In this document: positions 973 through 34,482 of the stretch, one piece after another
Position numbering within the stretch: position 1 is the first letter of the stretch
Layout of the letters: every line of letters begins with the position of its first letter
Source of the DNA: an uncultured Candidatus Saccharibacteria bacterium
Lineage (GTDB): Bacteria > Patescibacteriota > Minisyncoccia > Phycocordibacterales > JAKAEA01
Assembly (NCBI GenBank): GCA_964532205.1
Contig: CAZHGQ010000003.1
Span: 4,382 to 68,381 of the forward strand
DNA length: 64,000 nt
Reading direction: 5' to 3'
Made by a program: the position numbers and the translations under genes
Notes under the pieces: generated by a model
What the model was told of the DNA's origin: nothing
The model's database searches: none
The model's input: the letters and a program-made list of their open reading frames with translations, nothing else

Positions 973-975
973 TAC

Positions 976-1683: not shown

Positions 1684-1684
1684 T

Positions 1685-2221: not shown

Positions 2222-2292
2222 TTTTATTTTCTTTTTATCAGATATTCATCTCCAGTAGGGTATTCTGATTTCAGTTTTTTAAAGGAGAACCA

Positions 2293-2949: not shown

Positions 2950-3021
2950 CAGGGGTGATATTGCTACTTATTATAAGTGGCAGGAAGGTAAAATTGTTAC
3001 ACCTGTATTAAAATAAGGTAT

Positions 3022-15836: not shown

Positions 15837-15942
15837 CCACAAGATACCCACAAATCAATTTTCTTTTGCACGTAATAGTTCTATAATGAGTCAGTATTAA
15901 AACATACCCAAATCTTGTCTCAATTTGGTGTTCAAATATTTT

Positions 15943-16605: not shown

Positions 16606-16615
16606 CACTTACCAT

Positions 16616-17596: not shown

Positions 17597-17610
17597 AAGG
17601 GATTAGGACT

Positions 17611-18363
17611 ATGAATCTTTCTCCCCGAATGATAATTGGAGTTCTCATCTTGCTATTTTGTTTGCCACTTTCGATGATGGCTGCGGTTATGTCGAGCTCA
17701 AATTATAAAATTCAGTCTGACAGCATCAACTTTGGCGGTGGTAGTTCGGCTTCGACAAACTATCTCGGTCAAGATACTTTGGGTGAAATTGGTACTGGTG
17801 ATTCATCGAGTGAAAATTATCGTATGCATGCGGGTTATCAGCAAATGCAGGAAAGTTTTATTTCGCTTTCCGTAACTGGTAATCCAAATTTGGGTAATAT
17901 GGGTGGTATTTCTGGGGGTTCGACGATTGGTTCGACAACCTGGAAAGTTATTACTGATAGTCCGAGCGGTTATCAAATGACTACTCAAGCGGCCACCAGT
18001 CCGGCCATGCAAGGAACGCTCGGAGCCTATTTCTCAGATTACAATCCAGCCGGTGCGCCAACTCCTGATTACACTATGACTGTTGGTTCTGGAGAGTCGG
18101 CTTTCGGTTTTTCACCTGAAGGTACAGACATAATTGCTACGTATCGCGATAATGGTAGCGCTTGCAATACTGGCAGTTCTGATAATACAGATCGATGTTG
18201 GGATGGTTTTAGTACGTCACCAAAAGTAATTTCACAAGGCACAGGCGCCACACTTACCGGTACAGATACCGTGCTTAAGTTTCAAGCCAAGATTGGAAAT
18301 GATAAGATTCAAGATGCACAGTCATATTCTGCGACAATCACTGTGACCGCTGTAACACTTTAG
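17611..18363 (+). CDS. Secreted beta-rich surface protein, paralog C (homologous to 15943..16605)
   Basis: Signal anchor, then a TTWKVITDSP motif. The C-terminus SYSATITVTAVTL aligns with paralog A. Confidence 0.5.
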   Translation: MNLSPRMIIGVLILLFCLPLSMMAAVMSSSNYKIQSDSINFGGGSSASTNYLGQDTLGEIGTGDSSSENYRMHAGYQQMQESFISLSVTGNPNLGNMGGISGGSTIGSTTWKVITDSPSGYQMTTQAATSPAMQGTLGAYFSDYNPAGAPTPDYTMTVGSGESAFGFSPEGTDIIATYRDNGSACNTGSSDNTDRCWDGFSTSPKVISQGTGATLTGTDTVLKFQAKIGNDKIQDAQSYSATITVTAVTL

Positions 18364-18368
18364 TTAGT

Positions 18369-19863: not shown

Positions 19864-20235
19864 ATGGAACACCTACATAAATTAATTTCACTTCGTGAGG
19901 CTTCAAACATCTCAGGTTATAACCCTGACTACCTTAGCTCACTCATTCGTTCAGGCAAAATCTACGGTAAAAAGATCGGCAAAAGCTGGTTAACTACCGA
20001 AGACGATATTAGAAAATATTTAAAGGCAAATGGCAACCAAGGTCGAATCTTCCGGGCTAAGTTTCCACGGGTGGCTAAAGTCGGGGCATTACTCCTAGCT
20101 GTGGCAGCATTCGTCGCTGTGACTGTACTGGGTTTTTATGCTGCGGTTTATCAGCGTGGGTATGACCAGGCCAAAAATACCGCTAATGCAAATCAACCAT
20201 TTCAAACATTAGACACCGATCCACTTCGTTATTAA
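19864..20235 (+). CDS. Small helix-turn-helix (excisionase/MerR-like HTH) protein with a C-terminal TM helix
   Basis: ISLREASNISGYNPDYLSSLIRSGKIYGKKIGKSWL is an HTH_17-like motif. It is followed by the hydrophobic segment VGALLLAVAAFVAVTVLGFYAAV. The gene lies 7 nt upstream of the giant gene. Confidence 0.5.
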   Translation: MEHLHKLISLREASNISGYNPDYLSSLIRSGKIYGKKIGKSWLTTEDDIRKYLKANGNQGRIFRAKFPRVAKVGALLLAVAAFVAVTVLGFYAAVYQRGYDQAKNTANANQPFQTLDTDPLRY

Positions 20236-20241
20236 TTTAGG

Positions 20242-23200
20242 ATGAGCGTTTTTCTTGTAAAAAAATCATATTCCCAAAAAATTGCTGCCATTCTGATCAC
20301 GTCAATCTTCACCCAACTCATTTCAGGTTTTTTGGCGCCTTCATACGCTCAGGCGGCTATTAACAAACAAATTAATTATCAGGGTAAACTCACTAACACT
20401 TCAAATGTTGCGGTTACTGATGGTAGCTACAACATGCGATTCAAACTCTACACCTCACTCACTGGTGGTGTGGCAATTTGGACAGAAGATAATTTGGTTA
20501 CAAACGGTCAGGGTGTTCCAGTTACAAACGGTCTCTTCAGTATCATGCTTGGTTCGACAACTGCACTCACGGGTGTTGATTTCAATCAAACACTGTATCT
20601 CGGTGTGACTATCGGTGGCACAAGTGGTACACCGAGCTGGGATAGTGAAATGTCACCACGCAAAATTTTGGGTGCTGTGCCTGCGGCTATGATCGCCGAT
20701 ACATTGCAGGGCTATAATGCGACACAATTCATTCGTTCAGATGCGGCCAACTCAACCTCGACTTCAAACACCTATCTTTCAATTGCTAATACCGGTGCTG
20801 GTAAAGTGGCTGAATTCTTTGGGGCGAGCTCAAATTCTGTTCTGAGTATTTTATCTGGTGGTAATGTGGGTATCGGAACTACAACGCCGGGGTCAAAGTT
20901 ACAAATTGCTGCTGATCAGGCGGGGTTGGCCGACCGCATGCAGGTTACGATCACTGGCGCCACAAATCCTCTAAAAGGGTTAACACTTGGATACGACACG
21001 ACAAATAATATTGGCCACATATATTCTCGTATTGCAGGTTCTGGTCCTTCGGCACTGAGTTTCAACAACGGTCAATTGTACGTAGCTTCTGGAGGAAATG
21101 TGAGCATTGGTACTACATCTCCTTCTACAAAATTACACGTGGTTGGCACAAGCGAGCAGCTCCGACTTGGTTACGATCTGACTAACTACGGAAGCTTCAC
21201 CGTTGCAAGCAACGGTATCATGACTATTCAACCAACGTCCTCACTTTTATTACGTGCAGCCGGCGGTAACTCAGTTCAGCTTGGTATCGCTTCAACAAAC
21301 TATTTTTCATTGAGTAGTTTATATGCCACCTTCTCAACCGTTAGTGTCGGTATTGGTAGTACAACACCAGCTGCACTACTTTCAGTTGCTGGTAACACAT
21401 ACCTCACCGGTGGCTTAGGTGTTGGTACACTGAACACTTCAGCTGGCACACTTGTTACAAGTGGCGGCGCAACAATTGGCGGTTACACTTCAATTTCAAT
21501 CAATGCTGATGCCACATCTGCTAATCAGCAAGTTTTGACAGTGGCGAATAATTTTACAGGTCAAAATGTTGCTTATAATTTTGCGCTTGATAGTTCAAAA
21601 CGTCTTCACTTAAATGGTCAGTCAGGCGGTTCTGCTTTTATGTTCGATAGTAGTGGTGGTGTGAACCGTTTCATTATCCAAAACAATGGTTACGTGGGTA
21701 TTGGTAATAGTGGGCCAGGATATCCATTGGATATTGGTATCGGTGCTGACGCAACAGCTAAGACAGCTGACTTCAGAACATTAAATATTTCTAACACCGC
21801 TACTTCATCATCAAGTTTTACAAAATCGGGCATTCAAATTTCTTCAACTGGTTCATGGACTGGTTCAAATATCGGTTTGTATATCTCCTCAGTTACTGGT
21901 GGTACAAATAATTACGATGCAATTTTTAACGGTGGTGGTAATGTCGGTATTGGTACCACATCACCAGCCACAACTCTCAGTGTCACAGGTAGTGGTTATT
22001 TTACAGGTGGTCTAGGTGTTGGTGTACTCAATACAACGACGGGTACATTACAAACCGCTTCTACTGCAACGTTTGGCGGGCGAGTAATTATAAACACAAC
22101 ACTTACAGATGCGGATTCGGGCAGTCCTGCGATCGATGTAAATGGTGCTCTTTTAAGGATTGGTGATGGTGCTGGTGGTCAGGTATTTGCCAATGGAGTT
22201 GGTATTAAATTTCATGATGGTGGTGTATCTCATGCAAGCATTAAGTATATTTCTGGTTCAAATAACGCAGAGCGCATTGATTTTTGTGGTTCGTCGTCAA
22301 GTGCAAACTTGGCATGTAGTTCAGTGCCAATTTTAAGCATCAGTAATCTTAATAGTGCGGGGGGTGGGAAAATAAGTGTTGGTACAACGAGTGTTTCAAC
22401 ACGTTTCTCTGTTGCTGTAACCGATGACACTGTTGGTATTCAGCAAATCAATAATGCTGGTAACACCACATTCCGCATTCGTAATGCTGGCACTCAAGCT
22501 CGCGGTGAATTGTATTTGGATGATAACGGTTCAAATAAAATTTTCTTCACCGCCAATGGCAGTTCATATTTTAATGGTGGTAGTTTGGGTATTGGCACCA
22601 CCTCACCTTGGAAAGCTCTCTCTGTCTCAGGTGACATGGTCCTCACCGGTGGTCTCTTCGACTCACTCTCGTCGGCTGGTTCAAATGGTATGGTGCTCCA
22701 GTCGACAGGTTCAGCTACAAAATGGGTGGCCACATCAACGTTAGGTTTTGCTTCTGCTACACAAATCGGTTCAGGTCTTCAGGGTCAGATACCGTTCTAC
22801 AACGCTAATGGTTCCAACTTAACCGCAACCTCATCTCTGTTTATTGCGCAGAGTAGTTTTGTTGGGATCGGCACCACTTCACCAGCTTCACTCCTTGCCC
22901 TCGAAGGTACGGGTCAATATTTATTTGATGCCAAAACAACAACTTCAGGTTTCAACGGTCACGTCCGAGTCGAATCTGGTGGTAATGGTACGTACTACAC
23001 TACCGCCTCAGCAGTTTTAACTCTTTCAAATTACACCGACACGCTAAAGTATCGACAATATGTTACTAATGGTAGTAACTTTGTTCTCGAAAATCCTTAT
23101 GGTGGTGCAGTATTGGCAAACGGTGGTTCTTCAAACAATTACACCAGTATTGGTACTTCAACCATCAGTGCTACCACCGCACGTTTGTGGGTAGTGGGCA

Positions 23201-26200
23201 TTGGTAACACGGCAACAACACCAGTTTTTCAAACAAGTGGTGTGAACGGTACGGTTAACTTTACTGTTCAGGGTGATGGTACAGTGGGTATTGGCACAAC
23301 ATCACCATATGCCAAACTTTCAATTGAAAACTCAAATGCAGGCGCAACAGTTGGTGAAGTCATTCATTTAACAACCGGTCACACTGGTTCTACCGTTCTT
23401 GAGCTTCGAACTGCTGGTACTGACAGTGGTAGAAATTTGTTAACTGGTTTTCGTTCAAGCACGGTTAAGACCGTACAAATAGATGCCATGGGTGGTATTA
23501 CGCAATATGACGCTTCAAGTAATATTCGAACATCGTTAAACGGTGGGGAAATAGGAGTTAATTATTTTTTGGATAAAGTTGGCATTGGCACCACATCACC
23601 AACTCATAAATTATTAGTGAGTTCAACTTCGCATAATGATATTTTTGCTCTAGAGCGTATTAGTGCGACACAAGGTAATCGATTTGATTTTAGAATTACC
23701 GCCGATCCAAATGGTGCTAATAATTTAGCCGCACGCTCACTGACAATTATGGCCAACACCTCTGCGGCAGATATTGCTTTGTTGGCTGATCCGGCGGTAA
23801 CAAGTCCACAGTTTGTTTTGAAGGCGAGCGGCAACGTTGGTATCGGCACCACAACTCCAGGCGCAAAACTTTCAATTGCTGGATCAGCTGGTGGCACAAC
23901 ACCGTTGTTTGCAATTTCGACTTCAACATCAGGTTTTGCCACAAACACTGCTTTTTATGTAAACTCAAATGGTTATGTTGGTATCAATGCCACAAACTTG
24001 TCTGATATCTTCACGGTCGGTGGCACAATTTCAAACTTTAGTATTGGCACAAACGGTGGGGTAAAGATTGGTTTCTTATCACAGTTGGTTAATGCCAACA
24101 GTCAGCGATTTACGAACTTTGCCGGCTCAGCCGCAGCTCCTGCGCTCAGTGCCAATGATTCTGGAAACAACACTGGTATTTTCTTTAATACATCATCAGA
24201 TACAATTGGTTTTTCAATCAATGGTAGTGAGGCTGGGCGATTTGATTCAACTGGATACTTTGGAATTGGTACTACATCACCATTTAGTACGCTTTCGGTT
24301 ACTGGCAACGCGTATATTGCAGGTAATCTTACTGCCACTGGCACATTGGCCATAACAAGCAGTGCTACATTCGCCGGCGGCACAATTGTTCTTAATGCTG
24401 ACGGAAGTGCGTCGTTCGCAAATGGTGGTGTTGTGTTAAATACCGATGGTACGATACAAGGATCAAATCTAGATCTTGGAGATGTGGGCTCAATGATTAC
24501 TGCAGCGGGTGCACAATTTGCTTATGGCACTGATCCGACCACACTCGATTACGGTATCAAACTGCTCGATACGGGTGCAATATATGTTTCAAATCAAATC
24601 GAGTTTAATGAATCTGCGGGGTATACCTATATCCGTGCTTCAGGTAGTTCTGTAAGCAATACAGATATACTTACTCTTGGAACTGGACACGGAGGACTTA
24701 ACATTTCAGATGGCGATTTAAACACAGAATATTTTTCAGTTCTCGGTTCTGGTAAAAGTAATCCCGGGTTTATAGGTATTGGCACCACAACCCCATGGAA
24801 AAAATTGTCTATAAGTGGCGACATGGTCCTCACCGGTGGTCTCTTTGACTCACTCTCATCAGCTGGTTCAAATGGTATGGTGCTCCAGTCGACAGGTTCA
24901 GCGACAAGGTGGGTGGCGACATCGACACTTGGTCTCAATGCAAGTCTCGTGGGTACAACAGGTCAAGTTGCATATTTTGATGGTACAAACTCAACGGTTG
25001 GTACATCCTCTATATATATAGGTACATCTGGCCGTGTAGCAATTGGTACAACAACTTTGACTGCAACCGGTTTAACTGTTGTTGGTACCGTGGGCACAGT
25101 CTTTGGTACATATTCAACTGCCAATGTGCCCATCATTACTATTTCAAATGGCAACAGTGAAGCTACACCAGTTGCAAGTATTAACGGCACCAACAGCGGT
25201 GTGACGCTTTACTCAAACTCAGCAACCGCGATGTCATTTAATGTGGGTTCGGCCGCTTCAACGGCTGGTTGGGTTTTCACCAACATGCAGCACGCATTAG
25301 TAAACCGCAGCGTAACCTCAATCACTAATAATGGTTATATTGGTATTGGTACGACAACCCCATATGCTCGTTTAGCAATTTCTGGTAATTCTGCATATAC
25401 ATACACACCAACACTTTTTGCGATTTCATCTTCAACAGCGGCTTTTGCTACAACAACGCATTTTGTAGTGAATGCTGATGGTAAGGTTGGCATTGGTAAC
25501 GATGCGCCATTTTACGCATTAGATGCACGATCGGCGGTAAGTGGTGGCACAATGCTTGTTTGGTCACGCGCTTCGGGATCAACAAACAATAGTGGTATTT
25601 TGATCTCAGCGGCTGACAATTCAGTGACTACAAACAATTATCACAAAGGTGGTATTTTCTTCCAGGGTGATAATACTGGTTTTGGACGTGGTAGTTTGTA
25701 TTTGGTAAATAACGGTACAGGTGATAGTTCCGTGGCAACAGTGGCTGATGCCAAGTTAACAATAAATAGTAGTGGATATGTCGGTATCGGCACCACAACT
25801 CCCGCAACTCGTTTGCAAATAGGGGATCTCAATGGTCAGTATGTGCAGGAGGATAATTCCGATGCTGGTTTCACAATTGGCTACAATAGTGCTGCCAGAA
25901 TACAACTTGCCCGCAATGCCTCAAGTATTTTCGGTGCTGCTTACGCTGCGGTAAACGGTGACGCTGGTATTAAGATCGGTCGAAATGGTGCATACAGTTA
26001 TATTGTCGGTGGTTCAAATCTTTTACTTAACCCTGTAGCCGGCAATGTCGGTATCGGCACCACCTCACCATTTGCTCAATTATCTATCGGCGGAGCAGTG
26101 GGCGGCACAGCAAATTTATTTGCCATCTCAACATCATCTGCGGCATACGCCACCTCAACGGTGTTTGTAATTAATTCTGCTGGTAATGTAACTCTACCTG

Positions 26201-29200: not shown

Positions 29201-32200
29201 CCGGTGGTCTCTTCGACTCACTCTCATCAGCTGGTTCAAATGGTATGGTGCTCCAGTCGACAGGTTCAGCGACAAAGTGGGTAGCGACTTCAACGCTGGG
29301 TCTTGCTTCTACGCTTGTTGGTACAACTGGTCAAGTTGCATATTTTAACGGCACAAATTCAACAATCGGCACCTCATCAATCTCCATTGGTACTAATGGA
29401 TATGTTGGTGTCGGCACAAGCACGCCACTTTTCAAATTACATATTTCAGATGAAACATCTGCACCAATAGTTGCGATTCAGGGTGTATTCAATAGTGATG
29501 CAATTAGTCCAAAATTGTTTTTGGGTGAAAATTCGAATACAGGTTTCGGTATTCAATATCTCGGTTCAGCAAATCGATTCGACATCTTTAGTATGAATAA
29601 TGGCGCGTGGGCTGTGAACGAAACACCACGTCTATCTATTGCTCGAGATTCTGGCTATGTTGGTATTGGTACAACATCGCCGGGGTATATGCTCTCAGTT
29701 ACTGGCAGTATGTCAGCAGATAATGTTATTGCTTCATACTTCACCTCAACCTCAACAAATGCCACATCAACATTTAAAGGAAATATTATTGGCGGCTATA
29801 CAAATAACGTCTACGCAAGTAATTACTCTATCGCTGTCGGTGATGCCTCAACGGGCGCTGGTTACACATTAGCGGCATCAGGCAATGGTTCGGCCGCCTT
29901 CGGTCGTGTGGTGCCTGTTATTGGATCAGGTGGTGTAATTAGGGCTTCGGGTTCAGGTTCATTTGCAACAGGTGATATAGTTTCTATTACTGGTACTCCA
30001 ACAATCTTGGCTTCAGGTGGTGGTGCTGTTGCTCACGGTCACAACGAAGGTAGTGGTGCGATCACTGCCTCAGGTTCAGGTTCATTTGCAATTGGTTATT
30101 TAAATACTAATAGCATTACCGCTTCAAACACCGGCTCATTTGCCGGCGGTACTGGCGCAAGTGGTAATGTGGTATCGTCTGGCGCTGGCTCATTTGCTTG
30201 GGGTACAAATATTACCGCTTCAAATAGTTATAGTATTGCCTTTGGTTCAGGTTATACCAACGGTACTGCTAGTACGTTCCAGGTTGGCTTCTCATCAACA
30301 CCAACACTGACTGTTAATAGTACATCCGTTGGTATCGGTACTACCACACCATGGAAAAATCTTTCAGTTACAGGTGATATGGTTTTAACTGGTCGCTACT
30401 ATGACTCACTCTCATCAGCTGGTTCAAATGGCTATGTTCTTCAGTCAACGGGCTCAGCTACAAAATGGGTAGCAACATCGACGTTAGGTTTTCTATCATC
30501 GAGTGTGGTCTCAGGTCTTGGCACAAACTATATACCTAAGTGGAATGGTTCAGCATTTGCCGAAAGTCAGTTTTATGACAACGGTTCAAGTGTGGGTCTG
30601 CAAATGACTTCGCCACTACACACCCTAGATATCGGTTACTCTGGATCATATGGTGGATATATGCAGGGTGAAGCAGGTATCTTGGCTATGGGTGAGAGTC
30701 AGATGTCGCTCGGCGCATACGACCCCTTTTCTTCTCCAGTTAACCTGTTAACCCTCAACGGAACCGGCTTGGTCAGCGTAGTTAATGCTGATATGGAACT
30801 CGATGCTGGCCGACGAATGTATTACCGTGGTACCGATCATAATGGCTCTCTGTATTATGCTGGGGAAGGTCCATTTGCCGGCGCTCTTATTTTTGAATCA
30901 TATCCAAGTAATAACGATGGTTGGTTGTTCAAGAATCAAAATGGTGTAAGCATTTTGACACTTAGTGCCGGTGATACAGGTCAGACATTATACACTCCAG
31001 CAAATGTTGGTTTGGGTACCACAACTCCATGGAAAAAACTGTCTATAAGTGGCGACATGGTCCTTACTGGCGGTCTCTTCGATTCACTCTCATCAGCTGG
31101 TTCAAATGGCTATGTTCTTCAGTCAACGGGCTCAGCTACAAAATGGGTAGCAACATCAACGCTAGGTATTACCGCAAGTCTCACCGGTACAACAGGTCAG
31201 GTGGCCTACTTTAATGGTACCAACTCAGCTATTGGTACTTCATCTTTGTTCTTGGCAACGAGTGGTAACGTTGGGGTCGGCACAACATCACCATACGCCA
31301 CACTCTCAATAAACAAATCATCCGCCGCAAACTATGACCGTGTTATTAGTGCAAATATTGCTGGTAAAGAAGTCTTTGGTGTTGGACAGTATGATGCCTC
31401 GTCAAATTCTGCCTTTTACTTTGGTTCATCTGACGGTGTTTCAAATCCATATGTCCGTCTATTTGCTGGTCCAGCTGGCGGTGGAACACTAAGTTTCAAC
31501 GCGTATTTCACCTACTTTAACAGCTCGGCTGGCACGCAGTTTACTGGTGGCCCTGCACAATGGCAGGAAACGGGAACACCGACATCTGCTGCAACTCAGA
31601 AATCATCAAACATAATTGAGTTCAGGTCTGGTGTGTGGAATGGTTCAACAAATGGAAATCATATTCATCAAATTTACAACGCTGTTTCAACAACGGTGAA
31701 CTTACAGGACCGAATAGCGTTTAACTTAAACCGAGCAAATCAGATGGGCGGTACTTCATACGAGGCAATGTCTATCATGTATGACGGTGTAGCAAGTGGT
31801 CGAGTAGGAATTGGATCAACTACGCCATGGGCAAAGTTGTCGGTGAGCGCAATTGCTGCTGATGGTTCAGCGCCGTTGTTTGCGATTGGTTCTTCAACCG
31901 CAACGCAATTTATGATTGACAATACTGGCAAAGTTGGCATCGGTACAACATCGCCATACGCTACACTTTCACTCGGTGCGCCAGCAGGAAGTGAAATGTT
32001 TGCAATAGGTTCTTCAACAACGCCATTTAAGATAGATAAACAGGGAAAGGTAATTATTCGAGCATTGGCGGCGACGGACGGTGTTGGAACTAACGCTCCA
32101 TTCCAAGTACAAAACGAAGGTGGTACGGTCATTGCCTATATCCGTCAAGATGGCGGTATGTATAGTACCTTTATGTCTACAGCGGACAATGCTACGGCTG

Positions 32201-34482
32201 CGTTCAACCAGTCTGGGAATAATACAACCGGTCTTGGACTGGGGTCAGGCTCACTTATTCAGTGGTCAAGTACTGGTCAGTGGTGGGGCTCGAAAGACGC
32301 TGGACTCTCTCGAATATCAGCAGGAAAAATTGGAGTAGGAAATGGAACCGCTGCAGATGCTTCAGCAACCCTGATCGCAGGTACTATTGGTATCGGTACA
32401 ACATCACCTTCAACAACTAATAAACTGTCTGTAAATGGAAATGCTTATATAACTGGAACATTGACGGTTGGTACGACAACGGCCTTTCAACAAACAACAG
32501 GTGAAAGTATTCTTATTGGTGGCGCGGGAGGTATAGGCTCACACGCTGGTGCACTCAACCTGTCTTTGGGTAAGAGATCTGCATTAAATCTAAGTACTGG
32601 TGCGTACAACGTTTCAACAGGTTATGAAGCAGGTCAACTTATAACAACAGGTAGTTACAATGTTTCTATGGGCTTTTGTTCATCTACTGGTACAAGTACT
32701 AATTCGTCGGTGGCAATAGGTTACTGTGCGGGTACTGCAGGAGCAAATTCAATTGCCATTGGTAATTTTGCTGGTGGCGGTGTGATTACACATACAAATG
32801 CCACCGAAAACATATTCCTGGGTGCATTTGCCGGTTATATTGATGGTACTGGAAATCCAAACACAGAAAATGTTTCAGGCTCTGTGGCAATAGGTCGCTA
32901 CGCTATTGTTAATAAGTCTAATGCCATTGTGCTTGGATCGACTGGAACATATAAAGTAGATGTTGGTATTGGTACCTCAACACCGTGGGGTCAATTATCT
33001 ATTCATCCTCAAGTGCAAAATGGCACAGCGCCATCTTTTGTCATCGGCTCTACAACAACAAAATTCATTGTTGATAATGCGGGAAAAGTTGGTATTGGTA
33101 CAACAACCCCATGGAAAACTTTTTCATCATCTGGCACTGTAAGTCTTGCTGGTCTTACTACTGCTGCTTCTTCAGCAAACGCGCTTTGTCTTTCATCTAC
33201 TAATGAAGTCTTGGTAAACAGTGGCTCACAAACATGTACGGTGTCATCTGCTCGATTCAAGGATAATATTGTCTCAATTTCTTCTGGTCTCGATACGATT
33301 CTAAAATTAAATCCAGTTACATTTACATATAAGGACACCACAGATACTCGTATTGGTTTGATTGCTGAACAGGTACAAAATGTGGAACCACGCCTGGTAT
33401 TCAACGAAGCTGATGGTGTGACACCACGCGGTGTGCGATATGAAGATTTGGCAGCGTTAACAGTTTCGGCAGTTAAAAGTTTGTCTGACATTTTGGAACT
33501 GAGCACTGAGGGTGGTACAGGATTATATGTTTCAAAGCGTTTGAAATCAATTGAAGACCGACTAACTCTTTTGGAAGGTGAAGCTGGCGCAAGTGGTGCT
33601 ACACTCGGTGCTACTATTGTGGGTGGTCAGTTTGCAGTCGCCGATACTTCAATCGAAGGCGGTGATATTGTCGCGATTGATACGACACATTCATCAGCGG
33701 TGACAAAGGCTCAAGCTTATAGTGATGCCTTTGGTGTGGTGGCCTTCGACTCAACTATATTCACCTCAGCATCTTTGGACGCCACGACTACACGTTCAGT
33801 TGTTTCAACAGGACAGACTCCAGTAAAATTCTCTAATGCCAATGGTCCAATTCGGGCAGGTGACTATATTACTATGTCATCAACAACTCCAGGTGTAGCG
33901 GTCAAAGCAACTGAAACTGGCACAGTGATCGGTACGGCATTGGAAAACGCTACAGGTACATCAGGCCGCGTAATGGTGGCGGTAAAAGTTGGTTTCCAGC
34001 AAATTGAAGTTTCAAATGATCAGATAAATACCGATGAATTATCATTATTAGATAGCTTCAATGCTTTCATTAATGGTGCAAAGAAATGGATGTTTGGTTC
34101 TGTCTCAGTTGCCAATGGTTTCTTTAAAAATATCTTTGCCGAAAGAGTTCGTACAAAGACATTGTGTTTGGAAGATGTGTGTGTGGATAAGAATCAGTTA
34201 CAACAGTTGTTGCAGCAGGGTGGTGTTTCAAATGTAATGGGATCAACTGGTAATACAAGTGGTGGCACTGGTGGCACAAGTACAACAACCCCTCCAACAA
34301 GTGGTGGTACTGGTACAACAACACCGCCGGCAGATGGTGGTACAAGTACAATAATTCCACCAACAGGTGGCCAGGTAGAAATTACAAATAGTGATGGTGG
34401 TCCAACGACTTCACCGGCACCGACCGTGAGTGAAAATCCAAGTCCGGCACCAGCGCCTGTAGAAGCGCCTGTTGCTCAATAA
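20242..34482 (+). CDS. Giant (4746 aa) secreted tail-fiber-like repeat protein with a C-proximal intramolecular-chaperone (peptidase S74-like) domain, a coiled coil and a Pro/Thr/Gly-rich tail
   Basis: An AGGA RBS precedes the ATG and the ORF is uninterrupted for 14.2 kb. The signal peptide ends in SYAQA. There are about 30 repeats of the (V/I)GIGTTSPxxKL(S/H)V unit and 6 cassettes of SPWKxLSVSGDMVLTGGLFDSLSSAGSNG(M/Y)VLQSTGSATKWVATSTLG. The motif SSARFKDNI ... ILKLNPVTFTYK ... GLIAEQVQNVEPRLV ... RYEDLAALTVSAVKSL matches the endosialidase/tail-spike chaperone domain. Confidence 0.85.
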   Translation: MSVFLVKKSYSQKIAAILITSIFTQLISGFLAPSYAQAAINKQINYQGKLTNTSNVAVTDGSYNMRFKLYTSLTGGVAIWTEDNLVTNGQGVPVTNGLFSIMLGSTTALTGVDFNQTLYLGVTIGGTSGTPSWDSEMSPRKILGAVPAAMIADTLQGYNATQFIRSDAANSTSTSNTYLSIANTGAGKVAEFFGASSNSVLSILSGGNVGIGTTTPGSKLQIAADQAGLADRMQVTITGATNPLKGLTLGYDTTNNIGHIYSRIAGSGPSALSFNNGQLYVASGGNVSIGTTSPSTKLHVVGTSEQLRLGYDLTNYGSFTVASNGIMTIQPTSSLLLRAAGGNSVQLGIASTNYFSLSSLYATFSTVSVGIGSTTPAALLSVAGNTYLTGGLGVGTLNTSAGTLVTSGGATIGGYTSISINADATSANQQVLTVANNFTGQNVAYNFALDSSKRLHLNGQSGGSAFMFDSSGGVNRFIIQNNGYVGIGNSGPGYPLDIGIGADATAKTADFRTLNISNTATSSSSFTKSGIQISSTGSWTGSNIGLYISSVTGGTNNYDAIFNGGGNVGIGTTSPATTLSVTGSGYFTGGLGVGVLNTTTGTLQTASTATFGGRVIINTTLTDADSGSPAIDVNGALLRIGDGAGGQVFANGVGIKFHDGGVSHASIKYISGSNNAERIDFCGSSSSANLACSSVPILSISNLNSAGGGKISVGTTSVSTRFSVAVTDDTVGIQQINNAGNTTFRIRNAGTQARGELYLDDNGSNKIFFTANGSSYFNGGSLGIGTTSPWKALSVSGDMVLTGGLFDSLSSAGSNGMVLQSTGSATKWVATSTLGFASATQIGSGLQGQIPFYNANGSNLTATSSLFIAQSSFVGIGTTSPASLLALEGTGQYLFDAKTTTSGFNGHVRVESGGNGTYYTTASAVLTLSNYTDTLKYRQYVTNGSNFVLENPYGGAVLANGGSSNNYTSIGTSTISATTARLWVVGIGNTATTPVFQTSGVNGTVNFTVQGDGTVGIGTTSPYAKLSIENSNAGATVGEVIHLTTGHTGSTVLELRTAGTDSGRNLLTGFRSSTVKTVQIDAMGGITQYDASSNIRTSLNGGEIGVNYFLDKVGIGTTSPTHKLLVSSTSHNDIFALERISATQGNRFDFRITADPNGANNLAARSLTIMANTSAADIALLADPAVTSPQFVLKASGNVGIGTTTPGAKLSIAGSAGGTTPLFAISTSTSGFATNTAFYVNSNGYVGINATNLSDIFTVGGTISNFSIGTNGGVKIGFLSQLVNANSQRFTNFAGSAAAPALSANDSGNNTGIFFNTSSDTIGFSINGSEAGRFDSTGYFGIGTTSPFSTLSVTGNAYIAGNLTATGTLAITSSATFAGGTIVLNADGSASFANGGVVLNTDGTIQGSNLDLGDVGSMITAAGAQFAYGTDPTTLDYGIKLLDTGAIYVSNQIEFNESAGYTYIRASGSSVSNTDILTLGTGHGGLNISDGDLNTEYFSVLGSGKSNPGFIGIGTTTPWKKLSISGDMVLTGGLFDSLSSAGSNGMVLQSTGSATRWVATSTLGLNASLVGTTGQVAYFDGTNSTVGTSSIYIGTSGRVAIGTTTLTATGLTVVGTVGTVFGTYSTANVPIITISNGNSEATPVASINGTNSGVTLYSNSATAMSFNVGSAASTAGWVFTNMQHALVNRSVTSITNNGYIGIGTTTPYARLAISGNSAYTYTPTLFAISSSTAAFATTTHFVVNADGKVGIGNDAPFYALDARSAVSGGTMLVWSRASGSTNNSGILISAADNSVTTNNYHKGGIFFQGDNTGFGRGSLYLVNNGTGDSSVATVADAKLTINSSGYVGIGTTTPATRLQIGDLNGQYVQEDNSDAGFTIGYNSAARIQLARNASSIFGAAYAAVNGDAGIKIGRNGAYSYIVGGSNLLLNPVAGNVGIGTTSPFAQLSIGGAVGGTANLFAISTSSAAYATSTVFVINSAGNVTLPVSTQTFGIGGGTLTQGSQSNSLKINNRAEIGGSLAIGTTLNSDYMVNILNANSGNKVALRIMGISGTADGDFIKIYSQNGYTAGKNVFNVDNRGNLIIGAYDAIDDHSTVRKALVDLRPILSSDVGLTITATSTQNAPLFALLSSAGATTSVFTSAGWLGIGTTSPAAKIHLTTALSGVTPNADADEFFIENSGNTGLTIGSGVTGTGNIYFGDSGAATQGRITYNHTDDYLSTYVNNTEITRQTGTGVFNVLTKLTVGVGLGSGTGVTTMYVSNAALGDVIGITLKGYAGQTVNLQEWQNSSGTALAAVTANGSIVVGSNKIFLTASGDSFFDGGSVGVGTTTPGGKLHILGTTEQLRLGYDASNYFSTTLGSSGNVTWDAVGAGASFTLNDALTINANAGLSIKYAGVEVLKTTKGTVGSRSVGLFLDNKWDQSWTPMVVRGHAAQTADLLDFMDGSNNILTSITSAGWLGIGTSSPYQNLSVVGNSMVTGTSYFITSGTYLTNSGSGPQLMLDSARNAYVMAETSGSSLELNANGGITFKDSGTVGMRLGPTSGGISIGSGYASTDPGNGSLILSGSLGIGTTSPWKTLSVSGDMVLTGGLFDSLSSAGSNGYVLQSTGSATKWVATSTLGFASATQIGSGLQGQIPFYNANGTDLTATSSLFISQSGKIGIGTTSPTELLSLSGGNMNLQIHNTNATLNTSGWFLSEGRPGCFDGYFMIATSSACTATPAFSISNSGAVNFGLGVSVTDGQGFNSGSSGSLAFYKPFTGTTEGQLYFRGATSADAIFTVRGYYHNGSWNQQDIMTWRGGTAGARVGIASSTPWGMLSVNPNGISGPAFVVGSSTATNLIVTNGGKVGVGLTNPTSLLEVNGSFSAVTSNIGTAQGTVITANTNFRVYSSYEGTETANIAEYSGYFASAYSKRFEYNATGIGFYGATPIAKPSSTTDLRQALINLGLYTTGGATPLNLNGGTLLSGTAGVGTSTPWKTLSVSGDMVLTGGLFDSLSSAGSNGMVLQSTGSATKWVATSTLGLASTLVGTTGQVAYFNGTNSTIGTSSISIGTNGYVGVGTSTPLFKLHISDETSAPIVAIQGVFNSDAISPKLFLGENSNTGFGIQYLGSANRFDIFSMNNGAWAVNETPRLSIARDSGYVGIGTTSPGYMLSVTGSMSADNVIASYFTSTSTNATSTFKGNIIGGYTNNVYASNYSIAVGDASTGAGYTLAASGNGSAAFGRVVPVIGSGGVIRASGSGSFATGDIVSITGTPTILASGGGAVAHGHNEGSGAITASGSGSFAIGYLNTNSITASNTGSFAGGTGASGNVVSSGAGSFAWGTNITASNSYSIAFGSGYTNGTASTFQVGFSSTPTLTVNSTSVGIGTTTPWKNLSVTGDMVLTGRYYDSLSSAGSNGYVLQSTGSATKWVATSTLGFLSSSVVSGLGTNYIPKWNGSAFAESQFYDNGSSVGLQMTSPLHTLDIGYSGSYGGYMQGEAGILAMGESQMSLGAYDPFSSPVNLLTLNGTGLVSVVNADMELDAGRRMYYRGTDHNGSLYYAGEGPFAGALIFESYPSNNDGWLFKNQNGVSILTLSAGDTGQTLYTPANVGLGTTTPWKKLSISGDMVLTGGLFDSLSSAGSNGYVLQSTGSATKWVATSTLGITASLTGTTGQVAYFNGTNSAIGTSSLFLATSGNVGVGTTSPYATLSINKSSAANYDRVISANIAGKEVFGVGQYDASSNSAFYFGSSDGVSNPYVRLFAGPAGGGTLSFNAYFTYFNSSAGTQFTGGPAQWQETGTPTSAATQKSSNIIEFRSGVWNGSTNGNHIHQIYNAVSTTVNLQDRIAFNLNRANQMGGTSYEAMSIMYDGVASGRVGIGSTTPWAKLSVSAIAADGSAPLFAIGSSTATQFMIDNTGKVGIGTTSPYATLSLGAPAGSEMFAIGSSTTPFKIDKQGKVIIRALAATDGVGTNAPFQVQNEGGTVIAYIRQDGGMYSTFMSTADNATAAFNQSGNNTTGLGLGSGSLIQWSSTGQWWGSKDAGLSRISAGKIGVGNGTAADASATLIAGTIGIGTTSPSTTNKLSVNGNAYITGTLTVGTTTAFQQTTGESILIGGAGGIGSHAGALNLSLGKRSALNLSTGAYNVSTGYEAGQLITTGSYNVSMGFCSSTGTSTNSSVAIGYCAGTAGANSIAIGNFAGGGVITHTNATENIFLGAFAGYIDGTGNPNTENVSGSVAIGRYAIVNKSNAIVLGSTGTYKVDVGIGTSTPWGQLSIHPQVQNGTAPSFVIGSTTTKFIVDNAGKVGIGTTTPWKTFSSSGTVSLAGLTTAASSANALCLSSTNEVLVNSGSQTCTVSSARFKDNIVSISSGLDTILKLNPVTFTYKDTTDTRIGLIAEQVQNVEPRLVFNEADGVTPRGVRYEDLAALTVSAVKSLSDILELSTEGGTGLYVSKRLKSIEDRLTLLEGEAGASGATLGATIVGGQFAVADTSIEGGDIVAIDTTHSSAVTKAQAYSDAFGVVAFDSTIFTSASLDATTTRSVVSTGQTPVKFSNANGPIRAGDYITMSSTTPGVAVKATETGTVIGTALENATGTSGRVMVAVKVGFQQIEVSNDQINTDELSLLDSFNAFINGAKKWMFGSVSVANGFFKNIFAERVRTKTLCLEDVCVDKNQLQQLLQQGGVSNVMGSTGNTSGGTGGTSTTTPPTSGGTGTTTPPADGGTSTIIPPTGGQVEITNSDGGPTTSPAPTVSENPSPAPAPVEAPVAQ
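22596..22810 (+). repeat. Intragenic cassette copy 1 (SPWKALSVSGDMVLTGG ... KWVATSTLGFASATQIGSGLQGQIPFYNANG)
   Basis: About 90 percent nucleotide identity to 27959..28175, compared by eye. Confidence 0.7.
24790..24940 (+). repeat. Intragenic cassette copy 2 (TPWKKLSISGDMVLTGG ... RWVATSTLG)
   Basis: Near-identical at nucleotide level to 31023..31170. Confidence 0.7.
27959..28175 (+). repeat. Intragenic cassette copy 3, including the FASATQIGSGLQGQIPFYNANG extension
   Basis: Nucleotide-level match to copy 1. Confidence 0.7.
29160..29300 (+). repeat. Intragenic cassette copy 4
   Basis: TPWKTLSVSGDMVLTGGLFDSLSSAGSNGMVLQSTGSATKWVATSTLG with near-identical DNA. Confidence 0.7.
30346..30490 (+). 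repeat. Intragenic cassette copy 5 (variant TGRYYDSLSS)
   Basis: Nucleotide-level match with small substitutions. Confidence 0.65.
31023..31170 (+). repeat. Intragenic cassette copy 6
   Basis: TPWKKLSISGDMVLTGGLFDSLSSAGSNGYVLQSTGSATKWVATSTLG. Confidence 0.7.

What the first reader, a model, noticed from the sequence alone, without database searches (positions are those of the whole stretch)
20242..34482. 4746-aa giant secreted protein made of phage-tail-fiber-like repeats with a tail-spike intramolecular chaperone domain
A single uninterrupted 14.2-kb ORF covers 22 percent of the window. After the signal peptide it consists of about 30 repeats of the motif xVGIGTTSPxxKLxV(xG). That motif is characteristic of proteins annotated as tail-fiber-domain proteins. 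Near residue 4333 the sequence SSARFKDNI-(x)-ILKLNPVTFTYK-(x)-GLIAEQVQNVEPRLV-(x)-RYEDLAALTVSAVKSL matches the C-terminal intramolecular chaperone / auto-proteolytic (peptidase S74) domain of endosialidases and phage tail spikes. In those proteins the domain folds a trimeric beta-helix fiber and then cleaves itself off at the conserved Ser. In an ultra-small, probably episymbiotic bacterium such a fiber is a prime candidate for host-cell attachment.
Basis: partly seen in the sequence, partly recalled or inferred. Interest (0 to 1): 0.75.

Follow-up and report, generated by a model that had tools for sequence, protein, structure and literature searches.

The report
Giant self-chaperoned surface fibre of Patescibacteria
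A 4,746-residue secreted protein of an ultra-small (Patescibacteria) bacterium is built like a phage tail fibre and like the prey-grabbing fibres of Bdellovibrio, sits in a conserved operon with probable cell-surface anchor proteins, and is a strong but untested candidate for how these bacteria hold on to other cells.

Summary
ORF 20242..34482 (+) is uninterrupted and encodes 4,746 aa. It carries 30 copies of the xVGIGTTSPxxKLxV motif, against 0.05 expected by chance. It has a Peptidase_S74 domain at aa 4335-4386 (43.4 bits, cut-off 22) with an invariant Ser4335/Lys4340 pair.

The motif is the "capping loop" of the Bdellovibrio MAT trimeric fibres. A profile of the C-terminal region hits MAT crystal structures, phage tail-fibre chaperones and MyRF.

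- A conserved N-terminal beta-sandwich domain is found in about 49,000 protein clusters and in no phage record.
- A second chaperone domain of the phi29-gp12 (G2) type lies after S74, and its cleavage motif is lost.
- In at least 55 of 80 related genomes the gene follows four genes: a WxLIP-like membrane protein, two pilin-fold proteins and an fn3/TM protein. The fn3/TM protein is sometimes fused to the fibre.
- The shaft is mosaic and varies in length. The closest relative found has 3,080 aa and no S74.

The gene is chromosomal, not prophage. The trimer state, the self-cleavage, the anchoring and host binding are inferred, not shown. I rate it a new variant of a known kind.

The parts
20242..34482 (+). 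Giant fibre gene, 4,746 aa
   Evidence: Uninterrupted ORF. Identical to public protein P0217.
20242..20355 (+). Signal peptide, aa 1-38 (…PSYAQA|A)
   Evidence: Read from the sequence. Homologues in A2 have the same hydrophobic leader before the conserved domain. Not run through a predictor.
20371..20691 (+). Conserved N-terminal beta-sandwich domain, aa 44-150 (INYQGKL…PRKxLGAVPAA); proposed surface-docking end
20839..33243 (+). Mosaic shaft, aa ~200-4334, punctuated by 30 capping-loop motifs (xVGIGTTSPxxKLxV)
   Evidence: Motif counts are. The motif aligns to capping loops in Bd2133 (8OND), Bd3182 (8OJN) and MyRF, and to Supplementary Fig. 18 of PMC10769870. PHROG tail-fibre hits fall at aa 1730-2092.
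22579..22908 (+). Tip-like ~110-aa module, copy 1 of 6 (PWKxLSVSGDMVLTGG…KWVATSTLG). The other copies are at 24763-25092, 27934-28263, 29143-29472, 30325-30654 and 31009-31338.
   Evidence: Self-BLAST gives 52-89% aa identity between copies and at most 83% DNA identity.
33088..33243 (+). Last capping loop and conserved fibre tip, aa 4283-4334, with invariant Cys4316 and Cys4332. It ends …GSQTCTV just before the predicted cleavage site.
   Evidence: Alignment A1.
33244..33501 (+). Peptidase_S74 intramolecular chaperone, aa 4335-4420. Ser4335 is the predicted nucleophile and Lys4340 the predicted base. Predicted cleavage is Val4334|Ser4335.
   Evidence: Pfam 43.4 bits. S and K are invariant in 34 sequences. 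Profile hits: 6F45 at 4.8e-11, 8JOV at 1e-10, MyRF 7DC3 at 7e-6. 57 phage records hit by tblastn.
33592..34077 (+). Second auto-chaperone-like domain, aa 4451-4612, of the phi29 gp12 / Peptidase_G2 type. The D-x-A-E cleavage motif is replaced by I-V-G-G.
   Evidence: Profile A8 hits phi29 gp12 (6QZ9/3GQH) at 8e-5, at its own cleavage site, and the Dpo31 tailspike chaperone domain at 4e-4. PF11962 matches 5 of 16 homologues, but not the window's own copy. D9, A11 and E12 are nearly invariant in the family and differ in the window copy.
34099..34479 (+). Conserved C-terminal motif (…TKTLCLEDVCVDKNQLQQLL…) followed by a Ser/Thr/Pro/Gly-rich tail
   Evidence: Found near the C-terminus of many family members, with or without S74: 109 domain matches by local jackhmmer, window copies included. 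Function unknown.
15925..16605 (+). 226-aa secreted protein, paralogue of the 250-aa protein (pilin-fold, WxL-like position in the cluster)
   Evidence: 27% identical to the 250-aa protein and aligned end to end. Found upstream of the fibre gene in 25 of 80 loci.
16616..17596 (+). 326-aa WxLIP-like protein (signal peptide, two Ig-like domains, C-terminal TM helix)
   Evidence: PF06030 WxLIP_PGBD matches 20 of 36 orthologues, best 1.1e-7. The family profile hits E. faecium EfmWxLIP1 (9I25/9I1Y) at 1.2e-7. The window's copy alone is not significant. Present in 61 of 80 loci by tblastn.
17611..18363 (+). 250-aa secreted protein with a pilin-like Ig fold and a flexible N-terminal 'SxNY…SDSINFGG' extension
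18369..19703 (+). 444-aa fn3-containing protein with signal peptide and C-terminal TM helix; fused in frame to the fibre in some genomes
   Evidence: Weak fn3 / Pur_ac_phosph_N match. Present in 66 of 80 loci. In-frame fusions occur in L048, L022, L026 and L038; in P0296, P0301, P0318 and P0337 the N-domain begins near residue 552-572, as such a fusion would give.
19864..20235 (+). 123-aa HTH_17 + TM small protein between the anchor genes and the fibre gene
   Evidence: PF12728 at 27 bits, equal to the cut-off. Found at the same position in about 9 loci and elsewhere upstream in others. Also present in L082 as a 124-aa gene.

Best explanation
The gene encodes a cell-surface fibre of the same construction as phage tail fibres and the Bdellovibrio MAT (mosaic adhesive trimer) fibres.

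Proposed mechanism, with shown steps marked 'shown' and the rest inferred:
1. The precursor is exported by Sec through its N-terminal signal peptide.
2. Three chains are brought into register at the C-terminus by the S74 intramolecular chaperone (domain and catalytic Ser4335/Lys4340 shown). The shaft then folds from there as an interdigitated triple beta-helix. The 30 capping loops mark the edges of successive beta-helical segments (motif shown; the modal spacing of 83-98 aa matches the 96 aa between the two loops of Bd3182).
3. The chaperone cuts itself off at Val4334|Ser4335. This releases a 412-aa fragment that also contains a degenerate phi29-gp12-type chaperone domain. It exposes a conserved, Cys-containing tip.
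4. The conserved N-terminal beta-sandwich holds the fibre on the cell. It does so by docking to the products of the four genes just upstream: a membrane-anchored WxLIP-like protein, two pilin-fold proteins and an fn3/TM protein. Operon conservation and gene fusions are shown; physical contact is inferred.
5. The mature fibre has about 4,300 residues per chain. Scaling from the Bd2133 crystal fragment (about 150 Å for 370 residues) gives roughly 0.15-0.2 µm, comparable to the cell itself. It serves to contact and hold another cell or surface. Its fast-evolving mosaic shaft and tip set the specificity.
For: Domain content: S74; G2-like domain; PHROG tail-fibre shaft hits.

MAT likeness: the profile of aa 4235-4432 hits five MAT sequences in the PDB — Bd2133 (8OND, 3.9e-9), 8OJN/8ONB/8ONC (1.5e-6; the Bd3182 fragment, as I read it), 8OL4/8ONF, 8OML and 8ON4 — through the capping loops. 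The paper's own loop alignment lists NVGIGATSPSAKLQ and similar strings. The paper describes a signal peptide, a conserved ~130-aa beta-rich N-domain, S74 and non-S74 subgroups, surface location and S74 self-cleavage at the catalytic Ser.

The same split is seen here. Of 21 complete relatives in GTDB genomes, 4 have S74 and 10 have the G2-type domain instead. Of 148 top representatives, 34 have S74.

Cellular rather than viral: the neighbours are NusG, L11, thymidylate synthase, SHMT, ArgRS, IleRS, MetRS and FtsK. GC is even across the gene. The N-domain is absent from 50,697 phage records.

Anchor operon: the gene order 226-326-250-444-fibre is kept in at least 55 of 80 loci and in the closest relative, L082. 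The WxLIP assignment rests, and the pilin fold.

Variable shaft: giants share only the N-terminal ~220 aa (43-59%) and, in those that carry it, the S74 region (27-42%). The closest relative's fibre is 3,080 aa and lacks S74.
Against: No multimer model, structure or experiment shows a trimer, cleavage or surface location for this protein.

The S74 domain is not C-terminal as in canonical cases; about 325 aa follow it.

The motif has Ser-Ser-x-x-x-Lys rather than Ser-Asp-x-x-x-Lys.

Homology of the N-domain to the Bdellovibrio MAT N-domain could not be tested, because no MAT N-terminal sequence was reachable.

The two small operon proteins have no W-x-L motif and no Pfam WxL hit. The window's own 326-aa protein is assigned only through its family profile.

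Some Parcubacteria are reported as free-living (title of PMC12625730), so a host is not certain.

Which end is attached to the cell is inferred from conservation alone. The conserved C-terminal Cys motif and its tail have no assigned role.
Confidence: 0.62

Rival explanations
1. The fibre is a general surface coat or spacer, not a specific host-recognition device. It would form a brush of long fibres that protects the tiny cell from phages, grazers or aggregation, or that mediates non-specific sticking to particles.
For: The family is extremely abundant: 48,904 cluster representatives and 544 stretches in GTDB species genomes. The operon sits next to core genes (NusG, L11), as expected of a housekeeping envelope component. 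Some Parcubacteria are described as free-living. No recognisable ligand-binding tip domain was found.
Against: The shaft and tip diverge far faster than the anchor end, and length varies by 1,666 aa between the two closest relatives found. That pattern is typical of receptor-binding proteins under diversifying pressure. The nearest characterised relatives, MAT fibres and phage fibres, are specific adhesins.
Confidence: 0.2
2. The protein is a tailspike-like enzyme. The beta-helical body would carry a polysaccharide depolymerase or lyase activity that digests the capsule or wall of a host cell, as in endosialidases and many S74- or G2-terminated tailspikes.
For: S74 and G2 chaperones were first described on enzymatic tailspikes (endosialidase K1F; phi29 gp12, which degrades teichoic acid; established knowledge). 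The G2-type profile also hits the chaperone domain of the tailspike Dpo31; its name suggests a depolymerase, but the entry does not say so. Bd3182 has a P22-tailspike-like cleft proposed to bind O-antigen.
Against: No glycosidase, lyase or pectate-lyase-type family was detected anywhere in 4,746 aa at E up to 1. The composition is that of a thin fibre: 14% Gly, 12.5% Thr and 12% Ser, with capping loops every ~90-200 aa. It is not that of a single large catalytic beta-helix.
Confidence: 0.1
3. The gene is a prophage or tailocin tail-fibre gene, or a recent phage-derived insertion, and is not a cellular organelle component.
For: Homologues are annotated 'tail fiber domain-containing protein'. 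There are PHROG tail-fibre hits. The S74 region hits 57 phage records.
Against: No other phage gene is present in 64 kb. The protein has a signal peptide. The N-domain is absent from phage records. The same five-gene arrangement recurs in at least 55 different species genomes. GC is even across the gene.
Confidence: 0.03
4. The 14.2-kb ORF is an assembly artefact (chimeric join or mis-expanded repeats) or a decaying pseudogene that merely stays open.
For: The gene family breaks assemblies. In 52 of the 76 loci where the N-domain motif was located, the ORF runs off the end of the fetched locus, mostly at a contig end; about 7 are cut by the 10-kb fetch limit instead. The internal modules are up to 89% identical at aa level.
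Against: There is no stop in 4,746 codons. DNA identity between modules is at most 83%. The architecture is coherent from signal peptide to C-terminal tail. Independent relatives of 3,400-5,078 aa have the same N-domain and a C-terminal S74.
Confidence: 0.04

Closest known systems
Bdellovibrio bacteriovorus MAT (mosaic adhesive trimer) fibres, S74 subgroup, e.g. Bd3182 (Caulton et al. 2024, PMC10769870)
   Same: Both are cellular rather than viral. Both have a signal peptide, then a conserved beta-rich N-domain, then a long fibre with the same 14-residue capping loop (xVGIGxxxPxxxLx). Both end in a C-terminal S74 chaperone/protease with a Ser…Lys motif. Both families split into S74 and non-S74 members, show mosaic tips, and belong to organisms that live on other cells.
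   Different: This protein is about 4-5 times longer than the ~920-1,030-aa MATs mentioned in the paper. It has 30 loops rather than a few. It has SSxxxK rather than SDxxxK. It carries a second, G2-type chaperone domain and a conserved Cys motif plus STP tail after S74. The host organism is a monoderm-type Patescibacteria member, not a Gram-negative. It lies in a conserved operon with WxLIP-like and pilin-fold proteins, which is not described for MATs. N-domain homology is untested.
Phage tail fibres and tailspikes with an S74 intramolecular chaperone (K1F endosialidase 3GW6, T5 pb1 4UW8, S16 long tail fibre 6F45)
   Same: The S74 domain, the catalytic Ser/Lys, and the triple-beta-helix/fibre upstream are shared. 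The profile E-value to 6F45 is 4.8e-11, and 57 phage records are hit.
   Different: This protein has no virion context. It has a signal peptide and a cellular N-domain instead of a baseplate- or tail-attachment domain. It is far longer. The chaperone is not the last domain.
phi29 gp12 pre-neck appendage auto-chaperone (Peptidase_G2, PF11962; 3GQH/6QZ9)
   Same: Domain aa 4451-4612 and its family align to gp12 starting exactly at gp12's cleavage motif S|DFAEY. Most non-S74 relatives keep D-x-A-E.
   Different: In the window's copy the D, A and E positions read I, G and G, so self-cleavage there is unlikely. The domain lies downstream of a live S74 domain, giving a tandem of the two chaperone types. 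I found that tandem in only a few homologues (e.g. P0031, P0021).
WxL / WxLIP surface-protein clusters of Firmicutes (Enterococcus, Lactobacillus; Hassan et al. 2023, PMC10599100)
   Same: The cluster has one WxLIP-like protein (two Ig-like domains plus a C-terminal TM helix), two small paralogous secreted beta-sandwich proteins and a large surface protein. The commonest Firmicute cluster is one WxLIP plus two WxL.
   Different: The small proteins have no W-x-L motif and no Pfam WxL hit; their model resembles donor-strand pilins. The large protein carries its conserved domain at the N-terminus, not a WxL domain at the C-terminus. An extra fn3/TM protein is present. The phylum is different.
Myelin regulatory factor (MyRF) ICA domain
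   Same: S74-type domain with an upstream beta-helical stalk and one capping loop (7DC3, E 7e-6).
   Different: MyRF is a eukaryotic membrane-bound transcription factor, and cleavage releases a nuclear fragment. Its function is unrelated.

Membership tests
Peptidase_S74 / chaperone of endosialidase (PF13884) | Profile match above the curated threshold | tested here: met
   43.4 bits against 22, aa 4335-4386. Profile hits to the solved S74 domains 6F45, 8JOV and 7DC3.
Peptidase_S74 / chaperone of endosialidase (PF13884) | Catalytic Ser and Lys five residues apart (S-D-x-x-x-K) | tested here: met
   S4335 and K4340 are invariant in 34 aligned sequences. The second position is Ser rather than Asp in this subfamily. 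The first Ser aligns to the phage nucleophile.
Peptidase_S74 / chaperone of endosialidase (PF13884) | Domain is the C-terminal end of the precursor and is released by self-cleavage | tested here: inconclusive
   A further ~325 aa follow the domain. Cleavage itself cannot be tested in silico.
Peptidase_S74 / chaperone of endosialidase (PF13884) | Homotrimer; chaperones a triple beta-helix or fibre upstream | not testable with these tools
   Only monomer prediction was available.
MAT fibres (Bdellovibrio) | Capping-loop motif V-G-G/N-pi-x-x-P-x-x-x-L recurring along the fibre | tested here: met
   30 copies. They align to loops in 8OND, 8OJN, 8OL4, 8OML and 8ON4. They have the same form as the loops listed in the paper's Supplementary Fig. 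18.
MAT fibres (Bdellovibrio) | Signal peptide followed directly by a conserved ~130-aa beta-rich domain | tested here: inconclusive
   A conserved ~110-aa beta-sandwich follows the leader. Like the MAT domain, it has no specific PDB homologue. No MAT N-terminal sequence could be obtained to test homology.
MAT fibres (Bdellovibrio) | Family split into S74-terminated members and members with other C-terminal domains | tested here: met
   4 of 21 complete relatives and 34 of 148 representatives have S74. At least 69 others in the local set carry the G2-type domain.
MAT fibres (Bdellovibrio) | Located on the cell surface and involved in handling another cell | not testable with these tools
   Needs microscopy or genetics.
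Peptidase_G2 / phi29 gp12 auto-chaperone (PF11962) | Profile match | tested here: inconclusive
   The window's copy gives no Pfam hit. 5 of 16 homologues do, best 3.3e-5. The family profile hits gp12 at 7.9e-5.
Peptidase_G2 / phi29 gp12 auto-chaperone (PF11962) | Cleavage/catalytic motif D-x-A-E at the start of the domain | tested here: not met
   The family has D, A and E in at least 90% of sequences; the window has I-V-G-G. It resembles a G2 domain but is probably not an active one.
WxL cluster (WxLIP + two WxL proteins) | WxLIP: PGBD (DUF916) plus a second Ig-like domain plus a C-terminal TM helix | tested here: met
   PF06030 in 20 of 36 orthologues. EfmWxLIP1 hit at 1.2e-7. The TM helix is visible in the sequence. 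This holds at family level; the window copy alone is sub-threshold.
WxL cluster (WxLIP + two WxL proteins) | Two proteins with a WxL domain (dual Trp-x-Leu motif) | tested here: not met
   Two small paralogues flank the WxLIP-like gene. They have no Pfam WxL hit at 0.05 and end …TVTAVTL without Trp. Their fold model matches donor-strand pilins.

The most novel reading that the evidence does not exclude
The five-gene unit is a previously undescribed, Patescibacteria-wide surface organelle. It comprises a WxLIP-like membrane anchor, two pilin-fold subunits, an fn3/TM protein and a phage-type self-chaperoned fibre. On this reading it is the main device by which Paceibacteria-type ultra-small bacteria recognise and hold their hosts. 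The hypervariable shaft and tip would encode host range. Fibres would grow to giant size by head-to-tail concatenation of fibre units. Two interchangeable phage-derived chaperone types (S74 and G2) would be swapped by recombination.
Probability: 0.3. Interest if true: 0.85.

Novelty: new variant of a known kind. Interest (0 to 1): 0.66.

Why it matters
How ultra-small Patescibacteria outside the Saccharibacteria find and attach to hosts is largely unknown. Type IV pili are the only well-supported device, and the evidence comes from Saccharibacteria.

This gene gives a concrete, testable candidate with a characterised precedent, the Bdellovibrio MAT fibres. It also comes with a set of partner genes that could explain how such a fibre is fixed to a wall-bearing, outer-membrane-less cell.

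The family is very large (tens of thousands of clusters), yet I found no paper in the searchable corpus that links it to these bacteria.

There is a practical side. These genes end many metagenomic contigs, so they are systematically truncated and under-annotated in MAGs. Their variable shafts could serve as markers of host range.

The tandem of a live S74 domain and a dead G2 chaperone is a small but clear example of module exchange between phage-type folding devices.

Tried and rejected
- A whole-protein homology search timed out.
- Exact look-ups of the giant and of SHMT in the contig index found nothing. The cluster look-up did find the giant, SHMT and ArgRS, on one NCBI contig of 73,503 bp without a name. 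The organism is therefore named only through its homologues.
- There are no tRNA or Rfam hits in the window. NCBIfam gives nothing for the giant.
- Single-sequence phmmer of the C-terminus against the PDB found only a low-complexity match. A profile was needed.
A trimmed 7-sequence alignment worked.
- The AFDB Foldseek library was not available. The planned test of the N-domain against Bdellovibrio AlphaFold models could therefore not be run.
- Promoter and terminator scans were at background level.
- A weak profile hit to the Aureispira grappling-hook protein GhpA (E 0.006-0.08 with no stretch significant on its own) was not relied on.
- The homology search tool lists only hits of roughly the query's length. 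Giant relatives were seen only through the exhaustive representative search.
- I considered and rejected a prophage origin and an assembly artefact (see the rival explanations).
- The idea that the six tip-like modules are fossil S74 junctions was checked by eye. No Ser/Lys motif follows them, so it stays an untested idea.
Full report
**1. The observation**

The window has a single uninterrupted ORF at 20242..34482 on the + strand, 4,746 codons. GC content (0.42-0.46) does not differ from the flanks.

The N-terminus reads as a Sec leader ending PSYAQA|A. This is by eye; no predictor was available.

Shuffles of the same protein give a mean of 0.05. The copies are irregularly spaced, 42-312 aa apart, with a cluster of nine spacings at 83-98 aa. 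They are punctuation marks in a mosaic, not a tandem array.

Six longer modules of ~110 aa (PWKxLSVSGDMVLTGG…KWVATSTLG…) are 52-89% identical to one another at protein level and at most 83% at DNA level. Nothing suggests that identical repeats were collapsed or expanded. Raw reads could not be checked.

Pfam finds exactly one family in the whole protein: Peptidase_S74 at aa 4335-4386, 43.4 bits against a cut-off of 22.

**2. The S74 domain is real and looks active**

I aligned aa 4235-4432 with 33 homologues (A1). Eight columns are invariant. They include Ser4335 and Lys4340 (the S-x4-K pair), the G-x-I-A-E core, and two cysteines (4316, 4332) in the stretch just before the cleavage site.

A profile of this alignment hits several solved chains:
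- the chaperone domain of the phage S16 long tail fibre (6F45, 4.8e-11);
- another phage fibre (8JOV, 1e-10);
- MyRF (7DC3, 7e-6).

In the 6F45 alignment the family's first Ser lies on the phage nucleophile. The subfamily has Ser-Ser-x-Arg-x-Lys where phages have Ser-Asp-x-x-x-Lys.

tblastn finds the region in 57 phage records annotated as tail fibre or chaperone of endosialidase.

**3. The repeated motif is the MAT capping loop**

The same profile also hits five Bdellovibrio sequences in the PDB: Bd2133 (8OND, 3.9e-9), 8OJN/8ONB/8ONC (1.5e-6; the Bd3182 fragment, as I read it), 8OL4/8ONF, 8OML and 8ON4. The hits go through the xVGIGTTxPxxxLxV stretches.

These are the MAT (mosaic adhesive trimer) fibres of Caulton et al. 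2024 (PMC10769870). The paper reports:
- 21 proteins in B. bacteriovorus, 13 ending in S74 with an SDxxxK motif and 8 ending in other domains;
- location on the predator surface;
- self-cleavage of Bd3182 at its catalytic Ser, blocked by a Ser-to-Ala change;
- 'capping loops' at the edges of the beta-helix, with consensus V-G-G/N-pi-x-x-P-x-x-x-L.

The paper's own list of loops (NVGIGATSPSAKLQ, AVGIGTTNPSGILH, MyRF RVGINTDRPDEALV) has the same form as the 30 copies here. The two loops of Bd3182 are 96 residues apart, which matches the modal spacing in the giant.

Shaft segments also hit two PHROG tail-fibre families at 3e-20 and 4e-16.

**4. A conserved N-terminal domain that is cellular, not viral**

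Residues ~44-150 (INYQGKLT…VTNGLFSxMLGS…VDFNQTLYLGV…EMSPRKxLGAVPAA) are 50-74% identical in homologues from many Patescibacteria lineages: Paceibacterota, Parcubacteria, Kaiserbacteria, Nomurabacteria, Zambryskibacteria, Taylorbacteria and Falkowbacteria.

An exhaustive profile search of 1.84 billion cluster representatives gives 48,904 proteins at E ≤ 1e-3 and 2,353 at ≤ 1e-30. The profile includes the first capping loop, so the weak end of this count may be inflated. Among the best 148 newly listed proteins, 22 are at least 3,000 aa and 7 at least 4,000 aa, up to 5,078. One of them, P0217, is the window's protein itself. So the protein is large for its family but not unique, and it is already in public data, unnamed.

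**5. Family behaviour**

A scan of one genome per GTDB species found 544 stretches that encode the N-domain. The best 80 are all labelled as Patescibacteria lineages or carry uninformative labels; the single exception is one contig labelled Saccharofermentanales.

In 52 of the 76 loci where the motif was located, the ORF runs off the end of the locus. In most cases that is because the contig ends inside the gene. These genes break short-read assemblies, which explains the many 'partial' 100-250-aa fragments in databases.

Complete relatives range from 221 to 2,830 aa. At least seven are still open after 3,470 aa at the fetch limit.

Giants share only the first ~220 aa (43-59%). Those that carry S74 also share that region (27-42%). 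The shafts align poorly and out of order.

The closest relative I could find is L082, whose 250-aa operon protein is 68% identical. It has the same operon but a fibre of 3,080 aa with no S74.

**6. A second, different chaperone domain**

After S74 and a short coiled-coil-like stretch lies a domain at aa 4451-4612. It is common near the C-terminus of non-S74 relatives: at least 69 distinct sequences in my local set.

Its family profile (A8, 35 sequences) hits the phi29 pre-neck appendage protein gp12 (6QZ9/3GQH, 8e-5), starting exactly at gp12's self-cleavage motif W-S|D-F-A-E-Y. It also hits the 'chaperon domain D4' of tailspike Dpo31 at 4e-4. PF11962 (Peptidase_G2, IMC autoproteolytic cleavage domain) matches 5 of 16 members, best 3.3e-5.

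The family keeps D-x-A-E in at least 90% of sequences. The window's copy has I-V-G-G at those positions.

My reading is that Patescibacteria fibres use two alternative phage-type auto-chaperones. This giant carries both in tandem, with S74 apparently live and the G2-type domain apparently dead. This is an inference from alignments.

Further downstream a conserved motif (…TKxLCxxDVCxTKxELxxLL…) and a Ser/Thr/Pro/Gly-rich tail recur in many relatives, with or without S74. I cannot assign them a role.

**7. Genomic context: a conserved operon**

The surroundings are chromosomal. NusG and L11 lie upstream. A cytidylyltransferase, dCMP deaminase, ThyA, SHMT, ArgRS, IleRS, RecO, MetRS, TatD and FtsK lie downstream. 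No phage genes are present.

Directly upstream, on the same strand, are five ORFs:
- 226 aa (15925-16605);
- 326 aa (16616-17596);
- 250 aa (17611-18363);
- 444 aa (18369-19703);
- 123 aa, HTH plus TM (19864-20235).

tblastn places homologues of the 326-, 250- and 444-aa proteins immediately upstream of the fibre gene in 61, 68 and 66 of the 80 GTDB loci. The 226-aa protein is found in 25. The order is kept in at least 55 loci.

The 326-aa family is WxLIP-like. PF06030 (WxLIP_PGBD, formerly DUF916) matches 20 of 36 orthologues, best 1.1e-7. The family profile hits E. faecium EfmWxLIP1 (9I25/9I1Y) at 1.2e-7. The protein has a signal peptide and a C-terminal TM helix like WxLIPs. The window's own copy is sub-threshold when searched alone.

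In Firmicutes the commonest WxL cluster is one WxLIP plus two WxL proteins with a large surface protein. WxLIP is predicted to insert a beta-hairpin into WxL (PMC10599100). The resemblance in gene content is close. However, the small proteins here lack the W-x-L motif, so I do not file the cluster as a WxL cluster.

In several genomes the 444-aa-type protein is fused in frame to the fibre, in the order ectodomain, TM helix, basic loop, the fibre's own leader, then INYQGKL… (L048, L022, L026, L038). In representatives P0296, P0301, P0318 and P0337 the N-domain begins near residue 552-572, as such a fusion would give. In two of these fusions (L022, L038) the 'SxNY…SDSVNFxG' extension of the 250-aa family sits at the N-terminus of the fused protein. 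Such fusions are classical evidence that the partners work together.

**8. Most likely mechanism**

Steps 1 to 5 of the best explanation follow from the above. Shown:
- the architecture;
- the conserved catalytic residues;
- the motif identity with solved fibre loops;
- the cellular context;
- the conserved operon and the fusions;
- the contrast between a conserved anchor end and a variable shaft.

Inferred:
- Sec export;
- trimerisation from the C-terminus;
- cleavage at Val4334|Ser4335, releasing 412 aa;
- docking of the N-domain to the operon-encoded surface complex;
- a mature length of roughly 0.15-0.2 µm, scaled from about 150 Å per 370 residues of Bd2133;
- binding to another cell.

The main rival is a non-specific surface coat. 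An enzymatic tailspike is possible but has no catalytic signature. A prophage origin and an assembly artefact are unlikely.

**9. Comparison and novelty**

The protein works like a MAT fibre. It meets the testable MAT criteria: capping loops, S74 with Ser/Lys, and the S74/non-S74 family split. The N-domain homology is untested.

It is a bona fide S74 protein by sequence. It is atypical in that the chaperone is followed by a second, G2-type module.

I found no paper in the searchable corpus that links S74, 'chaperone of endosialidase', WxL or DUF916 with Patescibacteria or CPR. Database names such as 'tail fiber domain-containing protein' show that the S74 part has been auto-annotated.

I therefore rate the giant itself as a new variant of a known kind. 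The conserved five-gene unit is the part most likely to be new.

Noticed in passing
window 41674-45108 (+): The 1,144-aa class I tRNA synthetase, probably IleRS, carries a complete histidine-phosphatase domain (His_Phos_1, aa 493-656, E 9.8e-32). The domain is inserted between the two halves of the tRNA-synt_1 match. This is an unusual insertion in an aminoacyl-tRNA synthetase.
   Followed up: no
window 15925-19703 (+) and loci L002-L082: Four genes lie upstream of the fibre gene: two pilin-fold paralogues, a WxLIP-like TM protein and an fn3/TM protein. They form a conserved unit with the fibre gene in at least 55 of 80 Patescibacteria genomes. They have no Pfam annotation of their own, except through family-level matches.
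   Followed up: partly
L048:8537-20347, L022:8195-20314, L026:8264-11938, L038:1036-3204: In-frame fusions of the fn3/TM protein with the fibre protein keep both hydrophobic segments (TM helix, basic loop, fibre leader). This would give a helical-hairpin membrane anchor if the leader is not cleaved.
   Followed up: partly
window 17611-18363 (aa 28-80 of the 250-aa protein); L022 and L038 N-termini: A ~50-aa module of three 'SxNY'-type strands (…SSNYKIQSDSINFGG…STNYLGQDTLGE…SENYRMHAGYQQ) sits at the N-terminus of the 250-aa family. It also sits at the N-terminus of some fn3/TM-fibre fusions. It could be a portable donor-strand or docking peptide.
   Followed up: no
loci L002-L081: In 52 of the 76 loci where the N-domain motif was located, the ORF runs off the end of the fetched locus. 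This is mostly because the contig ends inside the gene. The family is a systematic assembly breakpoint and is mostly deposited as 'partial' fragments.
   Followed up: yes
window 34099-34479 (aa 4620-4746): A conserved C-terminal motif (T-K-x-L-C-x-x-D-V-C-x-T-K-x-E-L-x-x-L-L) is followed by a Ser/Thr/Pro/Gly-rich tail. Local jackhmmer gives 109 domain matches for it, in family members with and without S74. There is no TM helix or known sorting signal after it, and its function is unknown.
   Followed up: partly
window 19864-20235 (+): A small 123-aa ORF with an HTH_17 (excisionase-like) N-terminus and a predicted TM segment lies between the anchor genes and the fibre gene. It recurs at that position in about 9 loci and in L082. 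It may be a membrane-tethered regulator.
   Followed up: partly
window 45718-47604 (+) and 60572-62374 (+): Two further probable envelope proteins are present: a 628-aa DUF11-repeat protein between RecO and a class II tRNA synthetase, and a 600-aa protein with an N-terminal PG_binding_1 domain.
   Followed up: no
window 30760-31270 and 33500-33930 region of the giant (about aa 3170-3340 and 4085-4230): By eye, two stretches of short degenerate repeats (…SGSGSFATGD…SGSGSFAIGY…, …SVAIGYCAG…NSIAIGNFAGG…GSVAIGRYA…) resemble the YadA-head-type left-handed beta-roll repeats of trimeric autotransporter adhesins. Pfam gave no hit.
   Followed up: no
PDB 9FLP (Aureispira GhpA) versus aa ~4520-4555: The G2-type domain profile gives a weak hit (E 0.006-0.08) to the 5,898-aa grappling-hook protein of the predatory bacterium Aureispira. 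This may be chance, and it is noted only as a lead.
   Followed up: no
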